Part shown: positions 9,001 to 63,750 of the stretch, piece by piece
Layout: each line of letters opens with the position of its first letter
Position numbering within the stretch: the stretch's first letter is position 1
Assembly (NCBI RefSeq): GCF_964204865.1
Contig: NC_135250.1
Coordinates: forward strand, 26,908,001-26,972,000
From: Styela clava
Taxonomy: Eukaryota
Length of the DNA: 64,000 bases
Direction: 5' to 3'
Translations under genes and position numbers: made by a program
The notes under the pieces: generated by a model
Told to the model about the DNA's origin: nothing
Seen by the model: the letters and a program-made list of their open reading frames with translations, nothing else
Databases searched by the model: none

Positions 9001-12000
9001 TTGTGATGTCAACTTTCCAAACAGTCAAGGTCACTGATGAATTTGCCAAGGTCACAGAAGCCAATTGTTGTGTCCTTGTATTCTATGTGACAAGAAAATA
9101 AGAAGTTAAACAAAGTAATGTAAAGTAGCATTGTATTAGGTATGTGTTCTCATTATCGGGCACCCATCCTAAGCCTACAAGTTTGAATCTTGCAGAAGAT
9201 AGTTCTGTGCAAGAGAATTGATAGACTTCTTCATCGTCATAGTGAGGTGCATGTCACTGCCCACAGCCAGAAGAAAAGTATTTTTTGGTATACGGAATTC
9301 ACAACTAGGGCTGTCCAAAATCGAATATTTTTTTGCTTCGAATTGAACCAAATATTTTTCTCGAATCGAACCGAATAATCAAATATTATTGCGCAATCCT
9401 AAATTTGTCTCTAGTGTACAATAAAAACTTCCTCTTCAATATTGTGATAACGTATGTGCAGTTATATCTAAATTATTGCAAATATTTTGCATAACTACCT
9501 ATGTTTCCAGAGTTATAAAATGAGATCACAAGCCTCCTTGAACTGCCAAAAAAATTAGGGTTTTAAAAACTATCAAGTTTTAAGAGTTGGAAGTTGCACA
9601 GACTCTTTTAATGGTCATAGTTGCTATTTTAGTCCTATTATCATTAGTATTATTAACTCAATATTTTTTGTGTAATTTTCAGTAAAATGATAAACAACTA
9701 TTAATATAGATATAACTGTTGCCCAAAAAATTCAAAATTGCATCTCGGTAACTCACAAATTCAGAGCTAGTTTGATGACATTAATATTTGAAACAAAGTA
9801 TTGCCATTAGAAGAAATTACAAATTCTATTGGAAAAAGATATTGGACCTCCAAAACGTGTTTCAGTCCTGTACCATGTTCCTATGATTACTGACTCAACA
9901 GCTACAAATCGATAGAACTGGCGTTTTTGGCTGACACAAAATTTGCTTTTTTCTCCTTGTGTTCTCTCAAAAAACGTCATCTTTAAATCATTGTCATCAT
10001 TACCGATAACTTTTCATTTATGACCATGCATGGAATGGATAATTAGGTACATGTCACTGGGCAATAGGAGAGACCTTTTTACAGCAAAGAAAGCGATAGA
10101 AACATGTTTTTGCTTGCCCGGTGAAAAACGCGGTGCAAAGGTGGTCGTGAGGCGCATTATGTACCAAATTTTAGCGATTTGTAAATTGGCCGAAAAACGC
10201 TTCGAATAGTTTGCGATTCAATCTCGAATATTCGGTTCGCTTGGACAGCCCTATTCACAACCACTTAGTTATTTCTCCAGTCATCGTCTATTACTGAATA
10301 GAGTACTTTGCCAGTGATATCTAATGAAAAAAAAATAAATGAGGTTGTTTGCTGGTCTTTCCAAGGTTATGGATGATAGTTTACAGATTGTTTACAGATA
10401 GAAGTACTACCGGTAGTATCTGGATAAACTGCTGTCGCTGATTAACTATACATTAACATAGCCGATTTTTACACACTCACCGAAGAAGCAGGCCTTCTAC
10501 TTCTCGACCTTGGAACAGGAGCTTGCTGCCTCGCCTCTGGGTTGAATTTAACCCATTCCTCACAGAGGGGCGACATTAAAATGATACAATCATTCATTTT
10601 TTCAGTTGTTGATAAAAACTTTTTGCCTTTAGTTTGATAATATTCCTTAATTCCAGCGATGTTTAGATTGGTTGTCTGTTCAATCACTTGGTTTTGGAGA
10701 AGTGTTAGTGCCGAATGTGCTGTAATAATATCGTACATTAAAAGTTAAAATAGCACAATAAGATGTTTTTATATTTATTTTTGTGAAAAAGAGTGCTGAC
10801 AAGCTGAAAATAAAAAGTTGAGAAGAAGCCTAATAATATGGTTCGACACATGACGCATCACGCCATACATTATGAATGTGCTTGTCATCACAACTGATTA
10901 CTCTGTACGAGTTCTTGGGTTCGAAACCTGTAAACCTGTGGGGTATATTTATGTGCAAGGGGGTTGCTAGACTCCTCCCCACCATAGGGTGAATCACGTG
11001 GACTGCTGGTCAGAAATGGATACTTCATTATCTAGTCCGTGCCTCTGAAAAAAAAACTGGCTAACGAATCCCATACCCAACATGGACTGGTAACCAGAGG
11101 AGAGGCCGTGGTTCGCCATATGATTAAGCCATTTAATCTGCTTTCCGTTTTCTGCAGGGTGAATATGTAAATCCTATTTTCCTAATATTACTTAGAAGGA
11201 CCAAAATTTTCGCAGTTTGGCATTGCCAACCCAATTTATTACAACTTGGGTGAAGTGGGGGCATGAGACTTGAAGCCCAGATGTGTAATTGCGTTGCTAA
11301 CAGAGTTAATTATAGCACCTTAACCCTCTGGCCATCGCCACCACTTAAAACTTCCCTGTTTCCCTCCTGCAAAAAAATCTTACCATCTTCAAGTGGTTTT
11401 CTTTTTCCTTCAATACATAATCCACCTCCATTTTCAGGAGTCAAACTACATTTTATTGATTTCTGTTTGCATTTCTCCATAGAATATTCTTCAGATCTTT
11501 CCACGATAAATTTTGCTTGTCCATATTTCATTGTAATATAAATGCACTTGATTGAATTTTCATCCAGAAATGAGTTGACTTTGTTCTTCAAAATTCTTAA
11601 TTCTGAAAGTTCTGATACTAATATGAGACTTTGATTGGGCTGAAAAAAGAACATAAAAATCATTTTAATAGAAATTCTAGGTCACTGCTTCTCAACTTTC
11701 GTCATTTATGGCATGTTTCCAAAGATTGCCATTGCTTATAGCCCTCTGCTCTTCTATCAAAATACCTAGTTTTCTTTTCGGTTATTTTATCCCATACGTT
11801 AATAATGAAAAGCCAACAAATTATTGTGAAAGAATAAATGCATTATGGTGAAATAATTGTAATAATCATAGTCAATAAATGTAGTGATTGAGAATGAAAC
11901 CTACTGACTTCTTTCGATATAGCCTTCGGAGAACTGGATAAGATTTACATATTTATCCCAGGGGAGAGGAAAGTGATAAAACAGCTTAATTATATGGCGA

Positions 12001-15000
12001 ACCACAGCATCCTCTTGCACAAAATTAACTGATTTATGGTCTAAATTAATTTCAAAAGAATTGACTGTGGTTTGTTCGATACTTCAACTGTAAAACATTC
12101 ATTCTATTGCTTTTTTTTAGTTTTTATTATTAAACGTGGCACATGCATTAACTAATAACAATGCACTAAAAGCAAAACTATACATTTTTGTAGGAGCAGG
12201 TGGCAAGTGATTCTTTAAAAGAGGGTAAAGATCATGAACATGGGAAAACACAACTGGGTTTGAACCTGCTACATCTAACCAGCATATTATTCGATACAAA
12301 TTTTCAACAGTGTATTTTCCACCTACTTTTATATAAAGTCCGTATATTCCAGATTTTTTAAGATTTTGTTGAAATCCTCTCCATGCAGGAGATTTCACCA
12401 GACTTGATCCAGATTGGTCTGTTTTTATTGTTTCCGTGGCAACCATTTCTTTGATAATACGAATGGTTTTTTTGAACTCGTCATCTGACCGACTTCTCAA
12501 ACAAAGCTCGTCATCATCAATTCCGAGAGAAGCTGTAAGTAAACGAGTTGCATGATATGATTTTCATGTTTGTTTCATGGAGGGGAACGGGCAAAATTGA
12601 AAAGACAATACCCGCGCCCTCATAATTGGGACTAGAACCCACACAGCGTAATCAGAGCTTTGATGGCAAGTGCGTTCGCTAACGTTTGCAAAGCATTATT
12701 TCATTTTATTTACGAAGAAGACCCTTATAATACCAGCATGTACGGTATACAATTTCATATGACATGTACTATAATTATATTATCATTTGTTTGTAATTTG
12801 AATAATTATTTCATTGTGTCAGCTATTTGTATTTATCTATTATGTTAATATATGAACACAGTCAGTGTTAATGAACAAATTTATATACTCTCATAGTGTA
12901 TGTACCAGGTTAGGGTTAGGCCAATATTTCAATGCGATTTTCCTTATTTCAGTTCTATTACGAGTTCAGGACCTCCCTGTGTTAGACAAGTGAATTTCCC
13001 CCCTGCCCATATGTTTCAGTCCCTTTATACAACTTGATGTGAAGTAGGCCAGCGGTTCCCAACCTTTCTACCCTGGTGGACCGGTAAAATTAGACTAAAT
13101 GTACTCGCCGACCGGCAAAAAATTGAAATGGCCGGAACAGAAAAAAATACCATATATCCGCGTAATATAACGCAATGTCGGGCACTCAATATACTTCTAG
13201 ACAAAAAAGCACACTTAAAAACATTTCACACGCCCAAATTTAATAGTATTATATTTACAGTATAACCACCGATACCTTTGATGTTATCGATCTTCAGTTT
13301 GTCTTGTATTTTTGATATAACGATGTTAGACTGAGATGCTGATTCCAATAAATATCTAACTATGCTCTCATCTACATCTGATAATTTTCTTTTTTCAACA
13401 GTCTGTTATGAAATGAGGAATTTATTGGTTAATCAAATGTCAAGAAGAGAATTGGATTGATTTTTATCCTGTAAATATATAAAGATGAAAAGAATTTGTA
13501 TGGAAATCCAATCACTAACTATTGTCTTGATACAATGGTAGTTTATATATGTTAATACGCAGTTCATTTTCAATGTTCCAGATGCATTGATGGGCTTCCT
13601 AACCCAGTATAGTTTTTTTAAAAACCTTCTTTCTGTAATTTGAATATGAGTGATTTTTATGGCTTAAAAATTTGACTCAGATATACGTAAACTCAAGTAA
13701 TGTTTTTACAGTTTATTTTCATATATTATCCAGGGAAGAGCAAAACAGTAGCCATTTGGACCAAACAGTAACTGGTACAAACTTGTTAGTTTCACTAAAC
13801 ATGGGCCTACAGCCAGAATAGAGGATACAATAGGAACGTCTTATTTTCACTATCAGACACTTGTATTTGCATATAATTAGTAACTTTTTACATTTAATGA
13901 TGCACGGGATAAAACAGATAGTAAACCTTGAGGGCTGCAGAGCAATATGTCAAAGCACCATGAACAATGTGCTGTGGCCAGTTGAACAGTTGAAAGTATT
14001 GGTTTGATACAGCTTCTCTTTAAATTTTTCATTTTAATGGTAGCTATGTCCACTTCAAACCAAATTTAAACCTATTTAAATTCTAGTATATTAACATTAC
14101 TGGTATTGCAAACTGTGTGTATCACCCAGACTAATTCTCCTCCGGCTAATAAGAAGTATTATATTATATTCCAACAAAGCAATTGAAAAAAATAAGAATT
14201 ATGTTATGCTACCCTAACAAATATTAAAAAATTCATAACTAACATTCAATATAGTCAAAGCATCAATTTGAATCCTTGAAACATCCACTTCAGGTCCCTG
14301 TAATGTCACACTGTGCTTTGCATCATCTAGTTTTAATTGTACTTTCTTATGCTTAGCTTGAAGTTCGGACAGTATTCCGCAGTTTGTAAGAATTCTGTCA
14401 ATAGAGTAGAATAACATGGCAAATGGATTAAACAGCCCAAATAGAAGAATTGAACAGCCCTAATTTAATAAAGTTACTTCGTAAAGAGGAACGAGTGTTT
14501 AGGAGTTGGTTGAATGGTGGACTTTGCGATGCTTGCTTGGAAAATGAAACCTCAAATACTTTATAATTCATTGTCCCCACTACAACTTCCCAAGATCATT
14601 TTTATTTAACCATTGGAAGGAACTGAATATATCTCCTGTAATAATATCAATTTGTTTACATACTTTTCGCCGCTTTTGCGCTTCTGTTCAATTCAACCAG
14701 AATTGCATTAAGATTAATATTTTTTGTTAAAAGAACGAGTTCTTTACCCATCAAATAATTAGAAACAGGGGCAGTTTTTTTAATACCAGAGTCAGAACCA
14801 TGGGTATATATTTTTTAATTCCTAAGTCGAATTTTCAATTTCCACCAAGTCACAATTTCAGATTTCTGCAGTCAAGGTTTGAAAATAAAACAAATTTTCA
14901 TAGTCATACGTTTATTAATTAACCAAACTCTGGAATGGAGTCTATTCAATAAGACAGATTTATTTCAAATCAAGAATAATCAGTTTTATCTTTGAATTTT

Positions 15001-18000
15001 AACAAACTTTCATTACAAATTGCATGGGTTTGTCCATAATGGCAATGGCATAATAATTCCAACACATGTTGGCATGAAGCAAATAAACAAACAAACATTA
15101 AAAGTTATCTGTATAAATCGGCATTCCACAAAAAGGGAATATTCACCTGTATTGTTCTTCATTAACTGACATTTCAGCAACAGTTGAATTGATAGAAGTT
15201 TCAATTTCTTTCATTATTTTATCAACAGATTCTTTCAATCCTGTTACAGTTACTATTGGTTGATTGGGTTGCCACCTGAATAAATTGAAGACATGAAAAC
15301 AAAAATTCAGTCGTAAATAGAATAAGTATTTGAAAACAATGATTCATATTATGTCATCTATTATGAACAACATTGATTATCACCCTGTTTGAATGCAAAA
15401 TTTAACACATGTGGGTAAGATGGTCTAGTGCAGTGGTTCTCAAACTTGAAAAAAATTTCATGACAGACTCCCTGCAATTTTTTTTATGATATTTTTAGTG
15501 CGCGGCCTTGTGCATCAAAACATATTAAGATCACAACATAAAATTAATGCACCATATAGTAAAAAAAATACAACCAAACAAAAGTATATGCCAAAGTTTA
15601 ATGAGATGGGTGCAATTGTTTCATTGTAAAACAGCATTTAGAAGCGGACTGGCAAAACTTCATAAATTGCCTACTGTAACTTCCTCCTAAATCACCAAAC
15701 GTGCAAAAGGGCAGCCTCAGCTACACCTCTGCAGTTAGTTAACTTGTAATGGCAGCAATTGAACTCTCACTGTGATGTCACATGCTCACAGCTCTGTGAC
15801 ATCACAGTGGGGCTGCTTAATAGAAACTGAAAGTTTTTAAAAAAGAAAACGGAAAAGTGAAATAATCACTAACCTGATGTTGATATCATTCTTAGTTTCT
15901 GGTTTATTCAAATAAGGACAAACGTTGAGTGATATTGCTTTGCTTAATTTATCTTTGTCAAATGTTTGAGTCAAAGTTAAAAACTTGGTAATGAAATCAT
16001 CAAATCTTGTTTTGCATTCAGTATCGAATCCATCTTGGGTGTCCATGCCTGGATCCTGTAAAAAGAACAATAGGAAAAATGTCCCCAATGACCTTAAATG
16101 ATAAATCAAAACAGACTGAAAAAAATGAATGACTAAATGAACTCATATAATGACTCCAACAGATCACTGAAACTAATCAGTAATCAGTAAATTATTTTAC
16201 ACATGCCAAAAATACGCATTGTACGTACAGACAAGAGACAGATAAAAAAAATGCATTCTATTGTGAAGGGAGACTCGATAAACCAGTAATAGTTATTTAG
16301 CAGCGTCAGCTATGGAGGAAGTCTAACATTAAATTATACTGTAGAAAAAAATCAAACATTTAAATACTAAGAAAAGCCGGAAATGAAAGACATACAGGCG
16401 ACGGATATTCGAGTCTTGTTCATAACAATGAAAGCAAACGACTCCACACATGACAGACGAGGTAATTTAAAGATAAGTTCATGGCATTCTGATTCAATTA
16501 AACGTAAACAGGTTTGTCAGCTACAACATATGTAAACTTTTTCTGGTTAATACCTTTTCTGGAACAAACTTGACAAATTTCCCTTCTTTTGCAGTATGAC
16601 ACAATTCAACATTGGCCAAATCTTTGAAAACGTCTTTTATTTTGTTAACTTGCGCTTTAGTTAGTCGAATGAAGAAGAAAATTTTATCATGACATTCAGG
16701 TTTGTAAATGTAAGTGCTCAGTGTTTCATTTTTTTGAGATCTTGGAGTAGGCTTGGGTGGATCTGAATTTAAAATGAAAAGGAATGAGTGAATATTAAAA
16801 AGTCATGCTTCGGAAAAAAATTATGGGCATAGAAGTTGAAGCGACAAACTAAGATGTGTTGGCATCGCAGGTTACAAATCTCCCATGCTCACCAACTAAC
16901 CGAAGGTATAATGCATTGGGCAGAAAGAGTCTTGTTCCTAACAAAAGTTATAAAAAAGATAAGTACCGATGGGGATCATATGTAGTCTATGGACATTGAG
17001 GAAAATATATAATGAAACTTGATGTTTGGTGCATTATTCTAAATGTTTAAAGGGGACGAGACGGCAAAGTACCATGAGAAACAATTATGGACAATAGGAT
17101 TGCTAGACTTCTCACCTTCGTGAGATGGTTCATGTAACTGCTGGTCAATTATGACTTCCTCCACCATGAAGCCCACACAGATAAATGAATAACTGATTAC
17201 CTATTACCATACCCGACATAGATTGGTAACTGGATGAGAGCCAGCTTACCCCTCTTTCCTCTCAGTCTGCCATATGATTAAGCCACTTCACTGTCTTTCT
17301 CCTCTCAAACAAAATAAATAAACATAAAAAATCCAATCTTATTTTTTACCTTTTTTGCCACCTTTTCGTAGATTTTTCCCGTTTTCACTTTTTTCAACAC
17401 TTTTATGTAGATTTGAGAGTGAATGAAAATACAATTCAACTTCAACAGGATGTTGCCCAATAATAATTGATTCAGAACTAGGTTTTTTGAATCTTTTGCA
17501 TACTCGAGCAGTATCTAAAGAGTTTAACAGAAATTTTAATTTTTTTGTCAAAATTGGCGACTGTAGAATGAATGTAGTAATTGTGGTCACTGGTCATTTA
17601 TATTGGCATAATTCAATTTATTTTCAACTTTGTTGTGTCTGTTTAATGACAGTGACAACAGTGTTTTACCGGCGCTCTAGAATTACCGTTATGTGTACCA
17701 ATATGGAGGTAACTAATTTTGTTCGCTCACTTTACATCAAGTTGTGTAAAGGGACTAAAACCTATGGGCAGAGAATATTTTTACTTGGCTATCACAAACA
17801 GTCCCCGAACTCGCAATAGAACAAAAATAAGGAAAATCGGAATCAAATTATGGCCTAACCCTAACCTGGTACACATACTTAGTACCGTTTTACCTGCTGA
17901 GTCATACTTGATATGCGGCTATTGTTATAGTGAATAAAAACTTAGTATTTGTAAAACCTTATAGTTGGCGACAGTATGTTCCCCAGCTTTCCAAGTTAGG

Positions 18001-21000
18001 GGGGGGGGGGGTCAATTTTAGGGTGTGGTAGATATTTGTTATTAGTAATAAAACTATTTGTAACTTATAAAATGTGGTATGTATTTGAATGATCTTATGC
18101 CACAGCATCTAATCCTCTTTCTAGATATTTAAATGTAATTTTAATCAAGTTAGGAATTGAAGTGAGGTGTCATACCACAAAATCAAGGGGGAGGGGGGTT
18201 GGGGATGTTTGAAATCAGAGGTTTTCACCCGCTATAAGGCCAGGGAGGTAATGTAGGGACTGGTTGGCGAGGTCATGAAGTAACCCTTGGTAACGTCACG
18301 ACAGTAATAAGCATTACCCAATTTCTTAAAATAGATATTCAAACAATGGTGTTATACAGCATAAGAAATAAATATTGGTCAACTGTTTTCATTCCAGACC
18401 TCGGTAACAGAATAAAAGTCTGGCCCATATCACACCACCTTGAGTTTATACAGTTTCAGTAGCTATGGTCATTTTAGGTGGCTGCCTGTGACTTTGCTCA
18501 GAAACCAGTCTCCTCTAGTTCTGAATGAGTACACCGGACTGTGGTTTTAGCAAATTCCCTTGGAGAAAAAACTATACCAACTGGATAAAAGTCTTGCACG
18601 TATCATTTTAGTGGCCGTCCATAACTTTACTCTGAGATCAGTCTCTTCTAGTTTTGAATGAGCACATCTGACTGTGGTTTTAGCAAATTCTCGAAAAAAA
18701 AAAGATTGGAAAAAACACTATTCCTATACCGAATCTGGTAATTGGAAAAAAGTATGATGCACTAAATTTCAATACTTACCAATATAGGATGCAAAGTAGA
18801 CCAAAGTAATTTGATTTTCAATTCTATCAATTCTTGTCACAGGCCCACCATCAGTTCTTTTCTTACTTTCAAACGTAAGTCTGATTGTATCATTTGTTAC
18901 TGAATCTGGGATTCCTGATGCTTTTAGGCAATCAGTTCTTAAAAGCCTTGAAGCCTGAAAAATAAAAGAAAGTTCAAATTTAGGAATATTTCAGCCACTG
19001 CACAGACCAAAGTTTCTTAAAGTGGGACCTTGGCCCCACTGTGTCGACACAGAGTAATTATCTGGGCGCTACTAGCAATGACTAGGTACCATTTGTGATG
19101 ACTACAGTAATTTAAAGTAAATTGACTATAATTTGAGATTAGTTTGAGTCACTAGTATATACCAATTGAGTATGTGGTACATTATTTTCACATGCTGACG
19201 CGCTGCTTTGAATCCTATGCTTGATGATTTCGTGAGAAGGATTGCTGGAAAGTGGTTTGTACGACTTTCACAATCATTGAAAATGAAACATTTGCTTACT
19301 GGCTACCATGCCAACTGTAGTCACACTGAACAAAATCGTTTGATACCAGTATCAATAAAACAATAATTGATGCAAGAACTTCAGCTTACTTTCAAAGTCC
19401 GGTCTTCCAAAGGTTTCTTCCTAATTTTTTCCAAAAATGAATCTCTTTCACTGATATCTGTATGAAAGTTATAATAAGTATTAGGTGTAAAGGAGTTTGG
19501 GTATTTCTCAGGAATGCAAAAAATATTGTACTTTTTCTGGATTTTAGCTGTTTTAAAAAATATTCTGAGTGCGCAAATTTTCCAGACTCACAAGGTGTCA
19601 CTCAAAAATGGGCGCTCCAGAAATATATGTACCAATATGGTGGTAACTAATTTTTTTCGCCTACTTTTCATCAAGATTTGTAAATGAACAGAAGCCTATT
19701 GGAAGGGGGTATATTCAATTAGCTAACACAGACAGTCCCCAAACTCGTAATAGAACTACAATAAGGAAAAACAGGATAAAATTACGGCCTAATCCTAACA
19801 TGGTACACATACTACAGGAGTACCCAAAAATGTATTTCTGAAATGGTAAACTCCTTGAATAACTGGAAGAATTGGTTAACTATTCTCGAACCCGACCTAA
19901 ATTGTAAGCTAATGAGAAGGTTGTATAATTAAGTATAAATATGAAAATCCTATCCCCAAATAATAGCCTACATAATATTTAACGATATGGACTATATAGT
20001 AAAATTTTATTCTATATATTCATAACCAGGTATAGCAAGAAAAATAGGTACTCCCCTAGTATGTGTACCAGGTTAGGGTTAGGCCAACATTTTATTTTGT
20101 TTTTGCCGAAAAATGTGGTGAATTTTTATTGAAAATGAGAATCTGAACCCACCAAAATCATCTCCATATTCTACGAGATAAACGCCCTGTATATCTTGTT
20201 TTTTCAAAGATACAGGCGACGCTTCATTAGTAGAGCTAGTTTCAAGGTACATTGTCAAAGTATCTTGTGTTGTTGCTTCTCCAACTCCCTGTAAATAGTA
20301 TGAATGGAAAACTTTAATGAGAGTCGTGTATAATTTAATATTATTTTGTATTACTGTATCTGTTTTGAAATTTTGATATGAATTACATAACTCATTGGTC
20401 AATTTGTCGACTAAGGATTTTAAGTGTAGTTGTAGGTAATCAAAAATTAGTCTCAAAAAACCTGCGAAAGATTAGGCTAGAATTGGAACTTTGAAATGAA
20501 ATAATTTGAATCAAAATATTAGTTATGAAGCATATAAAGCAGTTTGTAAGCCCCAACTCGCTATAACACTTTCGAAATGAGTATCAAAAAATTTTGTGAA
20601 ATGGTAAAGTAGTAGAATAATACATCTGGGGTCAGAGATCAGTGTTGGTTGGGCCATGTTCAAAAGAAGTATTGAATTTGGTATAGCAGGATAATTGAAA
20701 TAAGCATAGTTGCGATAAGAAAAAATTTATAAAAACATTCCACTATATGGTATTTGTGGAAATTGTGTTCCAGCATTTAGAACATTGAATGGGGTGCAAT
20801 GTAATGAGCTATAGGAATACGATTTCTATAATACCTCTGATGACCCTGTGCATCCCACAGAGGATAATTATGTGCAAGAGGACTACTCCTTGTTGTTGTA
20901 GAGCAGTTTGAGTAACCGCTGGCTTTTTGCGTTGGCTTTTTCCAACATCCTGTCTATGCATCTGAAATGACTGGCTAACTAATTTCATACTCGACATGGA

Positions 21001-24000
21001 CTGTTAACTGGACGAGAGGCGGCCATATGATTAAGCCATCTTTTCCTCTCTCCCCTCCCCCTGGGATAAGTATAAAAAATCTCATCCTGACTGTGATAGC
21101 GTTGCACATTGAACAGAAATACATATACCGTAAATCTGATGATTCAAAATAGTGCTACCTCGATCATAAAGGTTTGCTCAAAATATGAAGGAATTGATTT
21201 AGGAAATACAGAAATGTCTTTTCCATCAAACTTTTGATCTTGTTTTCCTGAACATGACTCACAATCTGAAACAAGATATAAAAAATTGAAAGAATATAAC
21301 AGATTTTAATTTTATGTATCTGAAAAAAAAACAGTGAAATTATTCCTACACCTGACAAGGATTGGTAACTGGATAAGAGGCCGTGACTCATCACATGATT
21401 AGACTGTCTTATTGGGCTTGTCTGACTGTTGTAAATTCGGAAAAACTAAAAATACAGAAAAATTGAGATAAACATTCTTAAAATTAGTATTCACTATTTT
21501 ATTCTGTCAGAAGTTAACTATTTTTTTACTATTTTGATATCCTGACTGTGATAGGTGCGTACGGCGTGTTACGCTTCGTAAGGTCTGCTTATATGCGAAT
21601 GATTATGAAATCGCCGTTTAAAGACCATTTTTAGGGAGTCTGCTCATATGCGCGATCGGCGTATATGTGAGAATATACGGTAACTATTTTATTGTCTATC
21701 ATAAAATAATAAGTGTTTGCAAAGATATTTTCAAATATAAATATTTCTATTTCACAATTATCAACATACCTTCTTTACTCTCAAATACAATGAGCAATCC
21801 ATCAATCATTCTGATAACACTTTTCACAGGCCCGCCGTTCGAACGTTTCTTATTTTCAAAATGCATTTTCACTGTATCAATGTGCTTGGATGGATCAATG
21901 TTTTGAGCAAGAACACATCTGTGAAATAGATAATAGAGGAAATAAGAGATAAAAAATTATACTATGGACAATATGGCTCTGTGGTTGAAGCATTTGCATT
22001 AACTATGTTGGCATCGCTGATTAAAAAAATCCATTCACTGTACGATAAATTGGGTAGGCAATGCCAAACTGGAATGATTCTGGTTCTTCCAAACTACAAT
22101 AGTTCGTTAACTATCAGTTAACTGCTTGTTCAAAGTGTTCTTCAGAACAAAAGTCATTCAAATACTATAAAAAAAACTTTATCCTTCGTCTTGATTTTTC
22201 TCCCTTGCTCTCATACCAAGCAGTGGCTGGTTATACAGAGCAAGGAGAGCATATAAATACATCGTATATAAAAATATGTTTATCTCCCAGAATTCTGCAC
22301 ATCGAAATGACTAAATGGGCAACTATTACTTAACTGAGCTGACTATCTTGAAAGGGAACCAGACAAGAGGTCACAGCCTGTCATATGGTGTAGGATTGGG
22401 CAGTCTTATAGGATTTCTTTATCTTAATATGTTAATGTTACGTCCTAATGTTTTTATTTACCATATTTTAGAATGTGAGTAAGTTAATTGCGATTACATA
22501 TGAAGATGTCACGACTGACACGACTAAAACAAGAGGGAAATTCGAGATGAGACAAAAATCAAAAGAAAGTTTATGACATGGATTTGTAAATTTTACAGCA
22601 AGGCCTTTTGAATATTTATTGAAATTAAATTGAATAATGTAATAAACGAGAATATCGGTTAGAGACCGAGGACTTATCGATCAAAAGTTAGGGGATCCCC
22701 CAAAACAGCGCTCTTACTCCATAGTGACACCTTGTGTCCCATCACTAATTAATTAATAACTCGCTAATTATACGACATAATTCGCCCAAAATCAATAGGC
22801 TTCTCGTCCGAGATATGATGAATGCACATGAAAAATCTGGAGCAGATTTAATCTCGTTTTCGTGAGATATCGCGTGCATCTAACAGACAGACAGACAGAT
22901 ACATTTTATCAAATAGTAATTTACCCATATCAAGTATAAACCATCAAATAATTTGTTCAAAATGGAAAATTTAGTTTTATATATTCTGCCTAGTACTACT
23001 CAGTAATAAATAAAAGATCACTTTGGACGTTTCCTCATTCAAATTGAATTTTCATGTAATGTGGTTTTTTCAAATATTCATTTCATTGTTATGGCTCAGT
23101 TATACAGATTCAAATAGATTTGGCATGGTTACTGATAATTTTGACTCACTGGCCAACACAAAAGGCAACATTATATACACACATATAACCACAAACAAAG
23201 GTATAGAGATTTCAGGGACACATGACAAAACATAAAATAGGGTGTGATACCCCAGCGGTTATAGACTTAAATGTTTTTGCATAGCAGATTACACATCCCA
23301 ATTTTAATTTCCAAATTCCATGTTCCGACCCCACCCCCGGTGTGATAAATTGGGTGAAAAATGCCGAAAATGAAAAGATTGTGATTTGTTTCAAAAAATA
23401 GAAGATTGTTAGATAACAGTAAGTGGCTGTTTAATTAGTTCCTTATTCAGAGCAAAAGGCGTGAATAAGCGAGATATAAAAATATTAATCCTTCATTTGC
23501 TAGACATAAAGTATTGAGTTCTATTAATTATTTCTGAAGCGTGGGTGTTAAACAAAGACTCAGTGTAATGAACAAACACACAACGCTGGCTATGCTTGCT
23601 GTTATCACACAGTAAACAAAACCAGCTGATTTCTGTTTGAATAAACTGTATTTATACATGAGTCATAAGATAGTTTGGCAAATAAAGACTCTGGTGAAAC
23701 TATAGTATCATTATCGGGAAATTTTACAAATGCTTATTCGAATTCCATAATTTTATAAAATATTTTAGATTCATTTATACTGTTCATAGATACTATGTAT
23801 AGTTTATTGGCCCCTAAAGGTGTATTAAATGAAGTAAAATATTTTAAAATGAAACAAATATGACAAAGATATATTGAGAACTGACTTGAAATTGTAATGT
23901 GACTTTATGAACAACCAGTATAAGTAAATATGCTGCCATATGCTACCCATATTTGATTTCGTATTAGGATATGCCATGAAAGTAAAACCTGAATTATGTA

Positions 24001-27000
24001 TAACAAAAATAAAAGAAGACTCAATTCAAAATAATATTATGTCATACACTGGAATTTTGAGTACAGTTATATATCACTATGCAGTACAATAAACCTGAAT
24101 CCGGGTCATTGTAAATGGTTCGGACTTGACTTCTTATTTTAAAATCAAAATTTGTCATGTGCCAATCAATGTTTTACCTTCACATCAAAAATTGAAACTT
24201 TCAATGAAAAACAAATACTTTCATATTCTAAATCCTTCAGTATAAATCTTTTTTGCATCAAATTTGAATTTTGCCTTAAGCAAATTTCATATTATAAAAT
24301 CTCTAATAAAGACTCACATAGATCCTTCAGTTTCAGGCATCTTCTTTAATGTAGTCCAGTAATGAGTTTCAGTGAAAAGTTCTTCTTGAATCGGATCAAG
24401 TACAGCGTGTTGAGGGCCTTCATTCAAAGGTCTACTTGGTGTTGGAGGGCGTAAGTCTGGCATAGATGGTGCTTTGCCCATTCTTGATATTCCAGCAGAG
24501 TTAGCATTCGGCCTTCTTTTTCTTCGACCACGATTGCCTGGTGTTGAGTAACCGCTATCATCAGAAGTGGCTGATGAGCGTCGAGGCCCAGGACCAGGTT
24601 CATTAAAGTTTGGGGTAGGTTTGGGACCTGCATAAGAAAAGAGAAAGAATAGTGATCAATTATAGTAATAATTAATAGGGCTTAAATAAGTTGGCATCAT
24701 AGATTTCAAATCTTGGGTTCAAAATCCAAGGCCACCAGTTTACATTGTTTGGAACAAAAGCGCTGCATCATGAGATGATTTGTGCAATGATTTTGGCCTA
24801 CTCTCACTAATTTCAATTTACATGTAATTTAAAGTATTTTAACTTAAACGTTGATAAGTCCTACATCTGACTCTTTTTTTAGAAAACAATAATAATAAAA
24901 CTCAGATCGCCAGAGTAAAACCAAATTAGCTTATGTCACATTTTTCAGAAATGGTAATTTTTTATCTACTGTCATTAGGGATAAACATCAATATTTTGGT
25001 CTAGTCTTCAAAGCTGGGTACTCCTAAAATATGTGTACCAAGATGGTGGACACCGAAATGTAGTATGTGTGCCAGGTTAGGGTTAGGACATAATTTAAGG
25101 AGCAAATACTACAGGAGTTTCTTGGCTAGTCCCTGAACTCGTAATAGAACTAAAATATAGTAAATTGGAATAAAATTATGGCCTAACCCTAACCTGGTAC
25201 ACATACTACGTTCTGGTGGCCGCCATCTTGATATGCATACTACGCAAAGCTGTACCTGTTTCACTTTTGATTTTAGGTAATTTCTAATTTTTATAGTTGG
25301 ATGCTGAAACCAAAATTATAAACATGTGACTTTTTCAAAACCAAAATGTGGCTTTTTTGAATTTCTGTCATAATGGAAAAGCGGCAATCTTTTGGTATAA
25401 GTTTCAAAGCTGTACCTGTTTTACGTTTGATTGCAGGTGATGCCCTATGTCCATTTTTATTTTGGAACCGAATTATAACAAAAATACAAATTTCTCAAAA
25501 TCTAAATTTTGACACAAGCTTATTTGGTTCTACAGTGGCAATATAAAAATAATCTTAATTTAGAAAACAATTATCAATCTAATCACCTTCACTATCAGCC
25601 CATTGTATACTCAGATTACTCATTGGTCCAGCATTTACTCCTTCATGCCTTGCTCGGCAAGCATCATTCTGAACAAAATTCATCAATTAGATACCAGTAT
25701 TCTAAACCAGGGGTGTGCAACCTGCGGTCCAAATGCGTACACCAAGAAATAATTGTGCGGCCCACGGAGAAGGGACTATTTTGAATGATGCATAGCCCAC
25801 GAATCAAGTTTTAAATTTAGTTTCTGGTACATGCGAGTAATTCCATTCCCTTTACCCAGCGTCCATTTTATTATCTATGCTCATGACGTTACAATGATTT
25901 TTCATGCCTGCAACTACTAGAAAGGCTATGATAAAAGTGCAGCCCACGGCCCTGTGCAATTCATTTCCTATAAAGATGGCCCTTTTCTCTCAAAAGCCCA
26001 GAAGCTCTGAGAATAACATTCACACCTTGCCTAGATCCTTATTTATGGCTTGCTTGGAGCCTTGTTTTTGGCAAAGAAACACCTTAGACAGAGATAATAC
26101 TCACATGATTTCTAAATGTAACATATCCATGAAATCCAGGATTCTTCCTGTTTGGTTTGAACAAGCAATGTTCGAGAGGTCCAAACCTAAAAAAATGATG
26201 ACACAGTATGGTAGGCGTGGAACACAGGTGGAGGTTTAAAAACCAGAAATAACCAAAAAAAAAAAATCATTTTTATACACTAACAAATTTTTCAAACTTG
26301 ATTTATGAATTTATCTTCTGACTAGGAGTGGTATTGGGAGGTAATATGTAGTGTCAGAAGCTTTTGGTAGCTTTGCCTGTAGCTTTGCTCAGAAAAACCA
26401 CCTTTGATTTCTGAGTGAGTTCTCGTGACCTTGCCTTGGGAAAAAATAATAAATGAAATCTTGTGTACAAATAAGGATCAAAGGTTGTGGTGTAATCTTG
26501 CATTTATCCTCATATTTTTATGCTTCTAAAATAAATTTCTGGTAAACTATTCCTATACCCAATATAAATTGGTAACCAAATGAGTGACCATAGTCACCTT
26601 ATAATAGGCCTTCTCATTAACTTTCATCTCCGCCATGACAAATATAAAAATCTTATTTTATTTATCAAAGATAAACAGTGTGTGCAAAAAAAGTTCAAGT
26701 TCATAAACTGAGAAGCGTCCTACCTTTGGAAATGTAAACTGAAAGCTAGATGATTGCACAAATGCTGTGGTATCTGAGTGACATATAAAATTCTCCTCCA
26801 TTGATCTGCATCGCCTCTGTCAAATCTTGGATTCTGTCTATGCGGTTGATCGGTTCTTTCGTTTCCATATTTATTGTCCCTGCCTCCAAATCCTGGATTC
26901 TGTCGATATGGTTGATCGGTTCTATCGTTTCCATAATTATTGTCCCTGCCTCCAAATCCGGGATTCTGTCGATATGGTTGATCGGTTCTCTCGTTTCCAT

Positions 27001-29368
27001 AATTATTGTCCCTGCCTCCAAATCCTGGATTCTGTCGATATGGTTGATTAGTTCTTTCGTTTCCATAATTATTGTCCCTTGCTCCATATCTTGGATCACC
27101 TATTTGGAATCCTGGATTCTGTAGATACGGTTGATTAGTTCTTGCGTATACATAACCATCGTCTCTTGCTCCATATCTTGCATTACCTCCTTCAAAGCCT
27201 GGATTCTGTCGATATGGTTGGTTAGGTCTTTCATTTCTAAAACCCTCATTTCTTGGACCGTATCTTTGATTCCTTTGTTGATGTCTGGGTCCTGTGATCA
27301 TTATAATATAAATTTGTGTTTGGAATAAATTTATTACACTGATGCTAGAACACAATTCACTCTTGATTGAATTCTTAAATCTTTTAAATGCACAATTTTG
27401 ATCCCTGAAATTCTTTCATTCCTGATATAAATTTGCGAGTGCGATGGACTAGCAGTTGAGCCATTAGACCTGACAGAGGTTCCTCCTATATTCAAATCTC
27501 ATGGCTCGGGTTCCAAATAGCGACTGTCAGAACATCGACTGTCATAATGGAAACTTCATAATAGCGACGTAATCAAGTGAGCGACTGTCATAATGGCGAC
27601 CGCATTAATTTCATATGATTTTAATAATAGACGCTAGAACAGACTTGAAAAAAGCCAAAAAAACGCCAAAAAGCCAAACGAAAATTCTGACGCCAAACGC
27701 GTTTGAAAAAAGTAAAAAATGGCAAATTTGGCGTTAAAAAAGCCAATATGGCAATCCTGATCCAGCCTGGATACCAAATGTCATGCCGCCATTGGACCAA
27801 GGATATAATAAATTAGCAATGCCGAACCAGGAAGGCCCTGGCTCCTTCCAATACCAGCAGTTTCTTTTATGTCTTTATTTATCCGTGGCACCTTGTATAG
27901 AGCGGGCCTTGTTCGAAAAAACAAAAAATAATAAGCCCCGTATAAAAAAAACAATAATGATTGACACTTTAATAGTTTATATATAATTCCCCCTTATTGG
28001 TATTCCAGAATTTCACCCAATTTTACCGCATTCGTGAATTATCACGATCTTTGACGAGCCCCAGGGTACATATATTTTTTCATTTATATTCAAGTTATAA
28101 GGGGAGATCTAGCACTCCTATGGAGCACTTTTGAGTCCTGTCTTTCCATTCCCATATGAAATATAGAACTTTCCATACTGTATTACTGTATGTTGTCATT
28201 TTAATATTATTTATTTACTTTATCTTATTACAGCATTTCAATCCCAAAATTTGGTATAATCATGCTAATGCTGTGTGTTTTTTTCACTTTTGAAATATAA
28301 ATAATTTTTTGAACCCCATACCTGTGTCATATCCTTGATGTTGTTCTGTAAGTTGCTGTATTACTGTAAGCTTGTAGTTTTCATTTCCAAAGGTATATTC
28401 ATTTAGACCAGCATTAAGAAATTTTTGCAAACCTAAATAAATATCAAAAATGTTAGAAACAAATAAATTGTTACCTATGGTGCAAATAATAAATAGATAA
28501 GATGCCTTAATCATATGAATAACTATGGCCTCGCTTCCAATTACCAGTCCATGCCGTGTATAAGAATAGATAACCAGCTATTTTTTTTAGAAGCATGGTT
28601 TTGATGGTAGAGGAGGCGATAAACTATGCCCGCGAGAAGTCAAGCAATCTTTTTGATCATAATTATTTCCCTCGAGATTTTAACCTGCATACCCACTAAC
28701 CAACGTCAAAATAATTCATAGACTAAGACGAGCGGTCGGAAATAAGACAAGATAAAATGGAAGATTTGATAGTTTTCACCAGTACTGAAAGTTCTAAGCA
28801 TGCTAGCAATGGTAATGCTGATTATCCTGCATGTCATCACAGTTTTGAGTTTTATTAAACATTTTTAGAAATTAAAATTACATTTTTTCTATCAAAAATC
28901 AATATGCAGAAATGTGAATAAAAGCCTCATTATTCTGGTGTCACAGATTAGTAAATATGTCAAACATATTTCTTGTCCACCACTACGGTAATGGTGTAAT
29001 AATTTTGGAAGAGAATGTCAATATAGAAAATGATGTTCCAATGTATTAGTGGCTGCTAAACCAGAGCCTTTCATGAAGTGAAAATATGACGAACGAATCA
29101 AAAAAAAACATCGGGAACTCACAAAACAAGATTAGAGAACTTCTAAACAAATTTTCAAATAATTACTCAAATTTATTACTTAATAATAAAAAATTACTCA
29201 AAAACAACAATTACCACGAGGATGTTTAAAAATGAACACCGCAACATCTGCTCTTTTCTCTACATCTTCTATTATATTAGGTCCTATGTTGTTTTCAACA
29301 AACAATTTTAATTTCACTTTATTAACCGAAGAGGGAAAACCAGTAACATGTACTGTTCTGTTTTCCAT
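1..29368 (-). CDS. PARP14: PARP14-like macro-PARP, copy L (32 coding exons, ~1865 aa visible; 3' end beyond left edge)
   Basis: GT-AG exons in transcription order: 29368-29215, 28432-28322, 27291-26724, 26186-26105, 25668-25587, 24627-24318, 21918-21770, 21265-21159, 20288-20153, 19457-19390, 18954-18780, 17514-17350, 16762-16554, 16055-15874, 15275-15147, 14394-14244, 13402-13276, 12532-12327, 11639-11384, 10719-10481, 9082-8914, 8490-8346, 7842-7626, 7155-6967, 6157-6056, 5659-5478, 4718-4565, 3865-3649, 2786-2556, 2062-1868, 1147-1011, 52-1. Cumulative phases match at every junction. It contains PARP14-type RRMs (HFENKKRSNGGPV, TFESKKRTDGGPV), KH-like segments (VTVTGLKESVDK, VTLQGPEVDV) and three macrodomains. 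Orthology to PARP14 rather than PARP9/15 is inferred from architecture; the ART domain is not visible. Confidence 0.88.
1297..1613. mobile_element. hAT (Buster/Charlie-like) MITE
   Basis: CAGGGTTGTGCAAC...TTTTACACCCCTG; TSD GTATGGAC/GTATAAAC. Confidence 0.7.
1868..3760 (-). CDS. Macrodomain 3 exons, copy L
   Basis: VSVYQGDITTQNCDVIVNSV; VITSSGNLPCRQIIHLV; SVSIPALGTGQL; INIVIYDQIMLQDF. Confidence 0.9.
2144..2461 (+). mobile_element. SINE family 1 copy
   Basis: GGTTCGATTCT B box, same body as 41324-41662, tail ATCCTATCCTAT. Confidence 0.8.
2880..3160 (+). mobile_element. SINE family 1, degenerate
   Basis: AGTTCGAGTCT B box remnant, body motifs, ATCCT tail. Confidence 0.65.
3939..4216. mobile_element. 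hAT-type MITE
   Basis: CAGTGATTTTCAACC...TAGAAAACCACTT with internal GGAACC motifs. Confidence 0.55.
4565..7010 (-). CDS. Macrodomain 2 exons, copy L
   Basis: VSLVQGDITARNDDVIVSISPP; SAVSKALLKKAG; FETSGGGLGCQRLYHGIV; RSIVFPAIATGGFKHP. Confidence 0.88.
6285..6632 (+). mobile_element. SINE family 1, degenerate
   Basis: GCTAGACTCC...TAGGGTGGT...CCCATACTCGACA...GGGATAGATATGAAAATCCCATCCT. Confidence 0.65.
6690..6910. mobile_element. Merlin-like MITE
   Basis: CAAAAATG|GGCGCTCC start, family body, degenerate far end. Confidence 0.7.
7080..9082 (-). CDS. Macrodomain 1 exons, copy L (hydrolase-type motifs)
   Basis: VWKVDITKHTCDVIVNTSNPELKLLAGGVSGVI; PGDAVLTGAGNSPSCKKIVHAVGPRW; SIAMPAISCGVFGG. Confidence 0.9.
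7885..8245 (+). mobile_element. SINE family 1, degenerate (paralogous copy 61690-62235, interrupted by a MITE)
   Basis: GCACCTTTGATTACCCTGCGTAGGTTGAAATCC...GTAACCGGACGAG. Confidence 0.6.
9306..10253. mobile_element. hAT-type non-autonomous element, copy L only
   Basis: TIR TAGGGCTGTCCAA/TTGGACAGCCCTA, perfect 8-bp TSD TTCACAAC, subterminal TCGAA motifs. Confidence 0.85.
10849..11180 (+). mobile_element. SINE family 1 copy
   Basis: GGGTTCGAAACC B box, body and tail. Only the head remains at the paralogous site ~59340-59400. Confidence 0.75.
12887..13049. mobile_element. Truncated Merlin-like MITE abutting a hAT-type end (paralogous copy ~57635-57797)
   Basis: TATGTACCAGGTTAGGGTTAGGCC body, followed by CAGCGGTTCCCAACC at 13050. 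Confidence 0.65.
17090..17340 (+). mobile_element. SINE family 1, 5'-truncated (paralogous copy 53396-53640)
   Basis: GGATTGCTAGACTTCTC...CCATACCCGACATAGATTGGTAACTGG. Confidence 0.65.
17671..17886. mobile_element. Merlin-like MITE (paralogous copy 52849-53064)
   Basis: Perfect 8-bp TSD GTTTTACC; internal CCTAACCCTAACC. Confidence 0.8.
18490..18700. repeat. ~134-bp tandem duplication (paralogous copy ~52380-52590)
   Basis: Two copies of CAGTCTC.TCTAGTT.TGAATGAG.ACA.C.GACTGTGGTTTTAGCAAATTC. Confidence 0.7.
19611..19824. mobile_element. Merlin-like MITE with telomeric motif (paralogous copy 51228-51441)
   Basis: Termini GGCGCTCC...GGAGTACC, inner TIR TATGTGTACCA, perfect 8-bp TSD CAAAAATG. 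Confidence 0.8.
20830..21090 (+). mobile_element. SINE family 1, degenerate (paralogous copy 49910-50170)
   Basis: Body motifs and CCCCTGGGATAAGTATAAAAAATCTCATCCT end. Confidence 0.65.
22642..22900 (+). mobile_element. Helentron/HINE-like non-autonomous element, copy L only
   Basis: Starts AAACGAG, ends in an (ACAG)n microsatellite, absent at paralogous site ~48410. Class assigned by resemblance only. Confidence 0.5.
25017..25244. mobile_element. Merlin-like MITE, symmetric subtype (paralogous copy 46088-46315)
   Basis: TSD CAAAGCTG on both sides; ~70-bp inverted arms each with GGTTAGGGTTAGG. Confidence 0.8.
25245..25510. repeat. ~160-bp diverged tandem duplication
   Basis: CAAAGCTGTACCTGTTT at 25245 and 25406, with continuing similarity. 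Confidence 0.6.
26724..27291 (-). repeat. Coding tandem repeat exon (two 87-nt then 66-nt units; NERTDQPYRQNPGFGGRDNNYG), 6 cores
   Basis: Direct translation. CAG acceptor at 27294-27292 and GT donor after 26724, both in phase with flanking exons. Confidence 0.9.
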
Positions 29369-36494: not shown

Positions 36495-36841
36495 TAAATC
36501 CGCAGTATTCACATCAACTTAATTGATTACCTTGAAAAGTTACAGTTCTAGATCAGCAATATAACTCGAACCACAAGAAAGGCAATCTACAAGTATAGGT
36601 ATTTCGAACTTGTGTCAAACGGCAACCCAAATATATATTTGGAAGAGGTTCAAATTGAACTTGACATAGTGTGGCTATTTTTATTTGTTGAAAAAGGCAT
36701 CTGATTCACCAGAAATGAAAAAAAAAATTGTACCCCTTCGAATAACATAGGTACCGGAGCTTTTTAGAGTAGCACGACGAAGCAATTGAGCAAGAGCGGT
36801 TCAGCTCATTGTTAAAAGAAGTATATTAGTGCTCCGAAATC

Positions 36842-63000: not shown

Positions 63001-63750
63001 CTAACCAAAATACTCAACCTCAGGTTGCAAGTTTAAATATTTCATGCAATGTCTCATTGGTACAAGGAGATATCACAGCACGTAATGTAAGTATAATTCT
63101 AATATAAGAAAGTAATGCACAAATAAAACATTTTTGGGCGCTCCAGAAGTATGTGTACCAATATGGAGGTAACTATTTTGTTTGCCTATTTTACATCGAG
63201 ATGTGTGAAGGGACTGAAGCCTATGGGCTGGAGGTGTATTCACTTGGCTAACACAGACAGATAGAACTAAAATAAGGAAAATCGGAATAAAAGTATGGCT
63301 TAACCCTAACCTGGTACACATACTACGGGAGAGAATTTAAGAGTTGGGATGGCATTGCATTTCTCAGGATTTATCATGGAGTAGGGTCTAGCAGTCTTGC
63401 ACTTACCGTAATAATTCCCCACAGTAAACGAACCTTTGAACTTGCACAGGAGGACCTTTTTCGAAGTAAAAGATGTGAATAAAGCAGACAATGCTACTTG
63501 TGTAGGGCGTTGTTTTGAGCGCAAGTTGTGAATAAGCGTACAAGCGTCACATAAAAAGTAGCAACTACATGAACAAGGACATTTATAAAAGGTTTGCACC
63601 AAAATTTTCTAATAAATGAACCAACAAAAGTCTGTTTCCACATTACAGGATGATGTGATTGTTAGTATAAGTCCTCCAAAACACATTGCTGACATGAGCG
63701 GATCTGCTGTATCGAAGGCTCTGTTGAAAAAAGCTGGACAGAGAATACTC
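42012..63750 (+). CDS. PARP14: PARP14-like macro-PARP, copy R (25 coding exons, ~1455 aa visible; continues beyond right edge)
   Basis: Exons: 42012-42165, 42922-43032, 44097-44598, 45137-45218, 45664-45745, 46706-47015, 49076-49224, 49732-49838, 50838-50973, 51594-51661, 52120-52294, 53221-53385, 53967-54175, 54674-54855, 55453-55581, 56305-56455, 57283-57409, 58155-58360, 58863-59118, 59529-59770, 60164-60332, 61448-61592, 62284-62500, 62898-63086, 63649-63750. Exon lengths equal copy L except exon 3 (-66 nt) and exon 20 (+3 nt). The spliced frame is open throughout. Confidence 0.88.
43597..43879. mobile_element. MITE with inverted arrays of GCGAC-core short repeats
   Basis: Tandem TAGCGACTGTCATAATGGCGAC units facing their reverse complement; single arm at 27509-27610. 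Confidence 0.65.
44097..44598 (+). repeat. Coding tandem repeat exon, 5 cores
   Basis: Same exon as 26724-27291 but exactly one 66-nt unit shorter. Confidence 0.9.
48870..49020 (-). mobile_element. Second SINE-like family (paralogous copy ~21972-22120)
   Basis: TGGCTCTGTGG and GAGTTTAAATCCC Pol III-like boxes followed by ATAAATTGGGTAGGCAATGCC. That motif recurs at ~5280, 11235, 23345, 30850, 34520 and 59250. Confidence 0.5.
60164..63750 (+). CDS. Macrodomain 1 and start of macrodomain 2 exons, copy R
   Basis: DITKHTCDVIVNTSN; GAGNLPSCKKIVHAVGPRW; SIAMPAISCGVFGG; QGDITARNDDVIV. Confidence 0.9.
60363..60582. mobile_element. Merlin-like MITE present only in copy R
   Basis: TSD ATTTATTT/AGTTATTT; empty site AATTATTT on the minus strand at ~8885-8892. 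Confidence 0.8.
63137..63332. mobile_element. Merlin-like MITE
   Basis: CATTTTTG|GGCGCTCC start, ends TAACCCTAACCTGGTACACATACTACGGGAG. Confidence 0.7.

What the first reader, a model, noticed from the sequence alone, without database searches (positions are those of the whole stretch)
26724..27291. Prion-like R/G/Y/F/N/Q tandem repeat inside a PARP14-like protein, with paralog-specific copy number
Seen: one exon encodes two 29-aa units, then 22-aa units (NERTDQPYRQNPGFGGRDNNYG). There are 6 QPxxQNPxF cores in L and 5 in R (44097-44598), running straight into an RRM. Known: regularly spaced Tyr/Phe/Arg stickers in G/N/Q/D spacers beside RRMs drive condensation in FUS/TAF15/hnRNPA1-type proteins, and such regions can bind ADP-ribose polymers. 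I know of no such repeat in human PARP14. Inference: a built-in, length-tunable condensate module.
Basis: partly seen in the sequence, partly recalled or inferred. Interest (0 to 1): 0.7.

Follow-up and report, generated by a model that had tools for sequence, protein, structure and literature searches.

The report
Sticky repeat in sea-squirt PARP14
A sea squirt's PARP14-like immune enzyme carries a real, lineage-specific stretch of repeated tyrosine/phenylalanine/arginine-rich units beside an RNA-binding domain; it may help the enzyme gather in RNA granules, but that is untested, and related proteins often carry unrelated sticky stretches in the same region.

Summary
Exon 3 of two inverted PARP14-like paralogs of the ascidian Styela clava encodes two 29-aa units and then 22-aa units: 6 cores in L, 5 in R. 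It runs into a canonical RRM. My L model equals RefSeq XP_077969210.1 (RRMs, KHs, three macrodomains, ART). Spliced contigs from probable RNA runs support inclusion of the exon.

The unit was found only in a young Styela clade (6, 6, 5 and 2 cores). The Ciona relative has the same layout with a plain linker there. The sequence is a near-neutral, 13% aromatic, 15-17% Arg disordered region with no RGG: sticker-like, but not a FUS-type prion domain. Polymer binding and length tuning are unsupported.

Wider result: 22 of 73 relatives with a long N-terminus carry an unrelated prion-like stretch there, some as independent tandem repeats. So this looks like one case of a recurrent feature that human PARP14 lacks.

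Best reading: a multivalent module that helps RNA-granule entry (0.45). Main rival: tolerated linker expansion (0.3). No functional data exist.

The parts
26724..27291 (-). L exon 3: 164-aa repeat region (29,29,22,22,22-aa spacing; 6 cores) plus the first strand and helix of the canonical RRM
44097..44598 (+). R exon 3: same repeat with one 66-nt unit fewer (5 cores)
28322..29368 (-). L exons 1-2 (29368-29215, 28432-28322): N-terminal PARP14-type RRM (weak Pfam hit, E 0.017, below cut-off)
25587..26186 (-). L exons 4-5 (26186-26105, 25668-25587): rest of the canonical RRM
24318..24627 (-). L exon 6: second disordered linker, with a basic cluster; homologous to the longer prion-like stretch of the Ciona relative
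17350..21918 (-). L exons 7-12: block of PARP14-type RRMs
10481..16762 (-). L exons 13-20: KH-domain region
2..9082 (-). L macrodomains 1-3 and start of the last KH domain; the gene runs off the window, and the ART domain lies outside it
42012..63750 (+). R paralog, 25 exons in one open frame through macrodomain 1 into macrodomain 2; continues off the window

Best explanation
The repeat is a lineage-specific tandem expansion of the flexible linker between the first (PARP14-type) RRM and a canonical RRM in an ascidian PARP14-like mono-ADP-ribosyltransferase. Shown: it is coding, in frame, part of the PARP14-like model, and confined to one young Styela paralog clade. Inferred: it is disordered and offers about three aromatic and three to four Arg residues per unit at near-zero net charge. 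These give many weak contacts with RNA and with other copies or similar regions. Together with the neighbouring RRM they would concentrate the enzyme in RNA granules or other cytoplasmic condensates, where it would meet its substrates. More units would add valence. An antiviral role is inferred only from vertebrate PARP14.
For: Composition: 13.4% aromatic, 15-17% Arg, net charge +0.04 to +0.05 per residue, aromatic spacing mostly 6-9. hnRNPA1-LCD has 12 Phe, 7 Tyr and 10 Arg, with optimum net charge about +0.02 and Arg as auxiliary sticker (bioRxiv 2021.01.01.425046, passages). My coarse-grained single-chain runs gave scaling exponent 0.470 and 0.457 for L, against 0.519 with aromatics changed to Ser; the most compact 5% of human disordered regions lie at or below 0.477 (bioRxiv 2023.05.08.539815, passages). 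Among the six L units 9 of 17 changes in the 14-codon core are synonymous (p 0.014-0.032 at kappa 2-4). The adjacent RRM keeps Tyr in RNP2 and RNP1 (sequence; consensus recalled). 22 of 73 relatives with 150 or more residues before the RRM block have a prion-like segment there, against 0 of 111 after it. Human PARP14 goes to cytoplasmic condensates that overlap p62 bodies (PMC13224862, passages).
Against: No functional data. R gave 0.499 and 0.495, not compact. The 2-unit paralog gave 0.465 and the ordinary downstream linker 0.462, as compact as L; a shuffle of L gave 0.465, so neither copy number nor the pattern mattered (short runs, most parameters recalled, no outside benchmark). The selection signal is weak: 1 of 6 changes synonymous in the tail, 10 of 23 overall (p 0.03-0.08), and the split was chosen after seeing the data. 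Three other Styela PARP14-like genes lack the repeat (P0006, P0007, P0024). PARP10 condenses through folded RRM/KH domains, with RNA neither scaffold nor required (PMC13710856, passages). The upstream/downstream contrast is biased, since downstream sequence is mostly folded domains.
Confidence: 0.45

Rival explanations
1. Tolerated minisatellite expansion in a flexible linker: slippage or unequal exchange among young paralogs lengthened it, only the frame is constrained, and the sticky composition is incidental.
For: The unit is found only in one young clade of one species. Counts run 2 to 6. The Ciona relative has a plain 66-aa linker at this place and P0006 a plain one. Overall unit divergence is only marginally non-neutral. 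The cluster is full of truncated and mosaic copies.
Against: The core shows a synonymous excess. The 2-unit paralog, 76% identical overall, keeps the YRQNPxF cores and the same aromatic fraction. Sticky N-termini recur in relatives.
Confidence: 0.3
2. An array of short docking or modification sites: each core binds a specific partner or RNA, or serves as an acceptor for ADP-ribosylation or Arg methylation, without driving condensation.
For: The synonymous excess sits in the 14-codon core and not in the tail, as expected if a motif and not bulk composition were selected. A shuffle compacts as well as the real order, so condensation alone would not explain a conserved order.
Against: No known family matches the unit (Pfam; Atlas). 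Recent duplication alone makes units alike.
Confidence: 0.2
3. The exon is not in the main transcript, or L and R are one locus assembled twice.
For: No contig spans the whole repeat, and no GT..AG joint was among the 15 joint rows shown. The current RefSeq model of R starts at Met451, after the repeat. Listed exon-1 letters in the probable RNA runs are L-type.
Against: Contigs start at the exon's acceptor and share depth with upstream and downstream exons. RefSeq models of three loci include the exon. L and R both appear in both RefSeq rounds with separate ART-bearing models, and differ by 14-20% in distal DNA.
Confidence: 0.05

Closest known systems
Human PARP14 (macro-PARP, mono-ADP-ribosyltransferase)
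   Same: PARP14-type RRMs, KH domains, three macrodomains, ART domain; tandem duplication of such genes is known in lancelet and sponges (PMC13224862, section 9 read).
   Different: An extra canonical RRM and a 142-164-aa repeat. Human PARP14 is not among the PARPs listed with disordered regions over 100 aa (PMC10450202, passages). No WWE hit was reported for P0005 at E 0.05.
Ciona intestinalis LOC100181452 (XP_009862272.2, P0021)
   Same: Same order: first RRM, linker, canonical RRM, disordered stretch, PARP14-type RRM block.
   Different: No tandem repeat; its R/P/Q/N-rich prion-like stretch (228-292) lies after the canonical RRM, has 7% aromatics, and was expanded in my runs (0.536). The record has no macro or ART domain.
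hnRNPA1 low-complexity domain and FET-family (FUS/EWS/TAF15) regions
   Same: Evenly spaced Tyr/Phe plus Arg, slight positive net charge, next to an RRM.
   Different: 28-30% charged residues, 10% Pro, N/Q/D/P spacers and only 14-15% Gly; 0 RGG and 0 [GS]Y[GS]. No sequence homology found; a resemblance in composition only.
Human PARP10 condensates
   Same: A related RRM-KH mono-transferase that forms antiviral condensates (PMC13710856, abstract start and passages).
   Different: PARP10 uses folded RRM and KH contacts, not a low-complexity repeat.

Membership tests
PARP14-like macro-PARP | N-terminal PARP14-type RRMs and KH domains | tested here: met
   PF23085 66.6 bits and KH_PARP14_8 38.1 bits above cut-off in P0005; other KH hits below cut-off; exon-level hits in L
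PARP14-like macro-PARP | Three macrodomains | tested here: met
   PF01661, 3 stretches in P0005; all three map to L exons in the window
PARP14-like macro-PARP | C-terminal ART domain with mono-transferase triad | tested here: met
   Outside the window. PF00644 in P0005; H2103, Y2133, I2198 in P0010, which equals L over 1476 of 1476 residues. Triad reading is recalled convention.
PARP14-like macro-PARP | WWE domain before ART | tested here: inconclusive
   No Pfam WWE hit listed for P0005; may be a diverged copy
PARP14-like macro-PARP | Catalytic activity | not testable with these tools
   needs an assay
Prion-like low-complexity domain (FUS/hnRNPA1 type) | PLAAC-type composition over 60 or more residues | tested here: inconclusive
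   Segment 93-232 called, best 60-aa score 14-17; none in the 2-unit paralog. Parameters were recalled, not the real program.
Prion-like low-complexity domain (FUS/hnRNPA1 type) | Low charge, Gly/Ser spacers, [GS]Y[GS] motifs (recalled definition) | tested here: not met
   Charged fraction 0.28-0.30, no Ser in the repeat region, 0 [GS]Y[GS]
Prion-like low-complexity domain (FUS/hnRNPA1 type) | Evenly spaced aromatic stickers with Arg, near-neutral net charge | tested here: met
   against figures in bioRxiv 2021.01.01.425046
Prion-like low-complexity domain (FUS/hnRNPA1 type) | Phase separation or condensate entry | not testable with these tools
   Only single-chain proxy runs, with mixed results
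RGG/RG box (PAR- and RNA-binding) | Clustered RGG or RG motifs | tested here: not met
   RGG 0; RG 1 in L, 2 in R, 3 in P0001
Canonical RRM | Pfam RRM_1 above cut-off, RNP aromatics | tested here: met
   23 bits in P0001 and 20.9 in P0005 against 20.7; weak PDB hits to hnRNPA1 RRMs, E 0.0035. Tyr kept at two RNP positions, His at the third.
Polymorphic coding VNTR | Copy number varies between individuals at one locus | tested here: inconclusive
   6, 5 and 6 cores at three loci in both RefSeq rounds; independence unknown; contigs break inside the repeat

The most novel reading that the evidence does not exclude
Non-vertebrate PARP14-like enzymes repeatedly evolve their own N-terminal condensation modules, by unrelated low-complexity stretches and independent tandem repeats, whereas human PARP14 lacks one and joins p62 bodies. 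The Styela repeat would be a young Arg/aromatic version whose unit number sets how readily each paralog condenses with RNA during infection.
Probability: 0.25. Interest if true: 0.68.

Novelty: new variant of a known kind. Interest (0 to 1): 0.42.

Why it matters
PARP14 and PARP10 act in condensates in human cells, but by borrowed scaffolds or folded domains. If invertebrate PARP14s carry their own sticky modules, condensation is an old and repeatedly re-invented way to aim these enzymes. The Styela cluster offers a natural series (0, 2, 5 and 6 units on closely related backbones) for testing how repeat number changes condensation and activity. If the repeat is neutral, it is an ordinary coding minisatellite in a fast-changing immune gene cluster.

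Tried and rejected
No whole genome was held for this window, so paralog counts rest on RefSeq protein records. No run was on record as RNA; nine were guessed RNA, of which I laid three plus one DNA-like run. The joints table showed only intronic-repeat artefacts (15 rows shown, 383 hidden), and copy number could not be read from contigs. No R-type contig was listed at exon 1 in those three runs; contigs show presence, not absence. A single-sequence AlphaFold model of P0015 had mean pLDDT 38.5 and was not used for a fold search. The Atlas gave no usable hit for the repeat and only sub-0.9 RRM leads for the RRM. A search for proteins over 2262 aa with alignment A1 found none. My recalled guess that the RRM is of RBM26/GANP type was not tested. 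Earlier-findings look-ups were empty. Weak Pfam hits of exon 6 to Filo_glycop and of the ORF at 36801-37115 to RSV_NS2 are below cut-off and were taken as noise. Literature: 'PARP14-like' + 'tandem repeat' 0 papers; 'PARP14' + 'ascidian' 1; 'Styela clava' + 'PARP' 11, 10 listed, none on this by title; 'PARP14' + 'prion-like domain' + 'invertebrate' 1, unrelated by title; a four-term search gave 449 papers, 15 listed, none containing 'macro-PARP'. The library lacks most subscription journals, and no supplements were read.

Full report
OBSERVATION. The repeat is at the stated places. Tandem Repeats Finder reports 66-nt and 87-nt periods in both arms. The window is an inverted duplication, 92-97% identical in the middle and 80-86% in the distal macrodomain region. 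I built 25-exon models for R (42012-63750) and L (29368-6056); all introns are GT..AG and both frames are open. Units are spaced 29,29,22,22,22 in L and 29,29,22,22 in R, with 6 and 5 cores; R lacks one 66-nt unit.

HOST GENE. Searching with exon 3 among proteins of 330-2000 aa gave 2 hits of 1887 candidates, both Styela clava. My L model equals XP_077969210.1 (P0010, 2216 aa) at 1476 of 1476 residues, and its later exons map down to the window's start. Its counterpart P0005 has PARP14-type RRMs, KH domains, three macrodomains and a PARP domain. The ART triad is H-Y-I, which by recalled convention means a mono-transferase. R residues 451-1455 equal XP_077969213.1, a model that starts after the repeat; an older record (P0015) covers R's N-terminus with 5 cores and then shifts frame.

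IS THE EXON USED? I laid 4 of 13 listed runs on R: three guessed RNA from three studies and one DNA-like. Contigs there are spliced: one record carries exons 13, 19 and 20 at record positions that leave out the introns. In all three runs a contig begins to align at 44092, five letters before the acceptor, with 258, 112 and 43 letters ahead of it that do not fit the intron. In X1 and X2 a contig of the same depth covers upstream exon positions. In X1 and X2 one depth value covers the exon's 3' end and exon 4, and in X2 it runs on into exon 6. These joins are inferred from record positions and equal depths, because the joints table showed only repeat artefacts. No contig spans the whole repeat. 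Of 35 listed exonic differences from R, 25 are L's letter, so the L type is the one shown expressed; R's own 5' end is not shown.

DISTRIBUTION. Core counts: L 6, R 5, LOC120335121 6 (one macrodomain, no ART in the model), LOC144425641 2 (truncated, with a damaged RRM). P0006 (first RRM, no canonical RRM), LOC120335126 (canonical RRM first) and P0024 have none. A profile of the unit hit only these Styela records among 165 stored proteins (8 hits; the next had E 0.057). An HMMER search of 1.84 billion representatives with the N-terminal alignment gave 149 hits; outside Styela all but one matched best through the RRM block, and the exception (P0159) is an unrelated repeat protein. The Ciona protein P0021 has the same domain order with a plain 66-aa linker where Styela has the repeat. 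So the layout is shared by the two ascidians and the repeat is a Styela-lineage expansion (or was lost elsewhere; sister species were not available). Counts are the same in both RefSeq rounds, but records of one locus differ by as little as 1 of 1491 residues and of others by 73 or more, so I cannot say the rounds are independent animals.

CHEMISTRY. The L repeat region (164 aa) is R 15%, N 15%, G 15%, Q 10%, P 10%, Y 8.5%, D 8.5%, F 4%; charged fraction 0.28, net charge +0.037; aromatic spacing follows a 7-9-6 pattern; FoldIndex is strongly negative. It has 0 RGG. A PLAAC-style scan with recalled parameters calls residues 93-232 with a modest score. The aromatic content and net charge are close to the hnRNPA1 low-complexity domain (12 Phe, 7 Tyr, 10 Arg, 4 Asp; optimum about +0.02, passages), but the charge is much higher and spacers are N/Q/P. 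My own coarse-grained runs (about 30-55 ns each; four stickiness values checked against PMC12002312, the rest recalled; no outside benchmark) gave exponents of 0.470 and 0.457 for L, 0.499 and 0.495 for R, 0.519 with aromatics removed, 0.465 shuffled, 0.465 for the 2-unit paralog, 0.462 for the downstream linker, and 0.536 and 0.556 for the Ciona stretches (errors 0.01-0.02). Aromatics drive the compaction, but there is no trend with unit number and an ordinary linker is as compact. This is weak support. Among L's units, 9 of 17 core changes are synonymous (p 0.014-0.032), 1 of 6 in the tail, 10 of 23 together (p 0.03-0.08).

WIDER PATTERN. Of the 149 hits, 23 have a prion-like segment of 60 aa or more by the same approximate scan. 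Leaving out the three Styela hits and those where my profile found no RRM block, 22 of 73 proteins with at least 150 residues upstream of the block have one there, against 0 of 111 downstream. I scanned 21 of the 22 with Pfam: all have the PARP14-type RRM, 17 a macrodomain, 11 a PARP domain. They are P/Q/G/Y-rich with Arg at 6% or less (Ciona 12%), and several hold unrelated tandem repeats (22 aa in P0131, 23 aa in P0145, 7 aa in P0112, 11 aa in P0088). Only two of the 22 are named (Ciona, Branchiostoma belcheri), so calling them invertebrate is an inference. The downstream control is mostly folded sequence, no proteome background was available, and these are predicted gene models.

MECHANISM. 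Most likely (0.45) the repeat is a disordered multivalent Tyr/Phe/Arg module that, with the neighbouring RRM, draws the enzyme into RNA-rich condensates. Coding status, anatomy and distribution are shown; disorder and stickiness are predicted; RNA binding, condensation and any immune role are inferred. Rivals: tolerated linker expansion (0.3), an array of docking or modification sites (0.2), exon or assembly artefact (0.05).

COMPARISON WITH WHAT IS KNOWN. The host is a PARP14-like protein; clustered duplicates are known in lancelet and sponges (PMC13224862, section 9 and passages). Human PARP14 has its first RRM on a flexible linker and is not listed among PARPs with long disordered regions (PMC10450202, passages). 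It enters condensates overlapping p62 bodies (PMC12084362, abstract start and passages). PARP10 condenses through folded domains (PMC13710856, passages). FET proteins sense PAR through RGG boxes (PMC7050482, passages), which this repeat lacks. The repeat works like an hnRNPA1-type sticker region at best; it is not a member of the FUS-type or RGG families on the features tested. My five searches found no paper on it, in a library without most subscription journals.

VERDICT. Real, expressed at least from the L type, apparently undescribed, and a new variant of a known kind. The condensate reading is plausible but untested; polymer binding and length tuning are unsupported. The most interesting lead is the recurrence of unrelated sticky N-termini in PARP14-like proteins. 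Interest 0.42.

Noticed in passing
window 29368-17350 and 42012-53385 against stored P0001: LOC120335121 is about 98% identical to L and R over the first 700 residues but only 70-85% after that, and lacks macrodomains 1-2 and ART; this suggests gene conversion or exon shuffling among paralogs.
   Followed up: partly
window 12009-17916 and 52819-58679 against distal arms: L/R identity is highest in the middle of the gene (97%) and falls at exon 1 (20 of 154 differ) and the macrodomain exons; repeat exon has 0 synonymous differences at 88 sites.
   Followed up: partly
window 42012-49224: The current RefSeq model of R begins at Met451 although exons 1-6 are intact and in frame here; the model may be 5'-incomplete, or R's 5' end may be little used.
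   Followed up: partly
window 24318-24627 (L exon 6), 46706-47015 (R): The linker after the canonical RRM holds DSGYST, resembling a beta-TrCP degron, and a basic run resembling a nuclear signal (both motifs recalled); both are missing in the 2-unit paralog.
   Followed up: no
window 8346-9082 (L macrodomain 1): Macrodomain 1 keeps the Asn, Gly-rich loop and GVFGG loop but appears to lack the His seen in hydrolase macrodomains (recalled); whether it erases ADP-ribose is open.
   Followed up: no
window 43597-43871: An element with 69-nt inverted arms sits in intron 2 of R just before the repeat exon; the same intron of L shows no inverted repeat.
   Followed up: no
window 17350-17514 and 53221-53385 (exon 12): Record positions of one contig in run X2 imply a 153-nt exon 12, against 165 nt in X1: an alternative donor 12 nt upstream or another paralog.
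   Followed up: no
stored proteins P0131 and P0145: Two unnamed full-length PARP14-like proteins carry much longer Gln-rich tandem repeats (22-aa and 23-aa units over 200-500 residues) at the N-terminus.
   Followed up: partly
window 36801-37115 (minus): A 104-aa stop-to-stop frame between the two genes has a weak, sub-threshold Pfam hit to RSV_NS2 (E 0.0033); probably noise.
   Followed up: no
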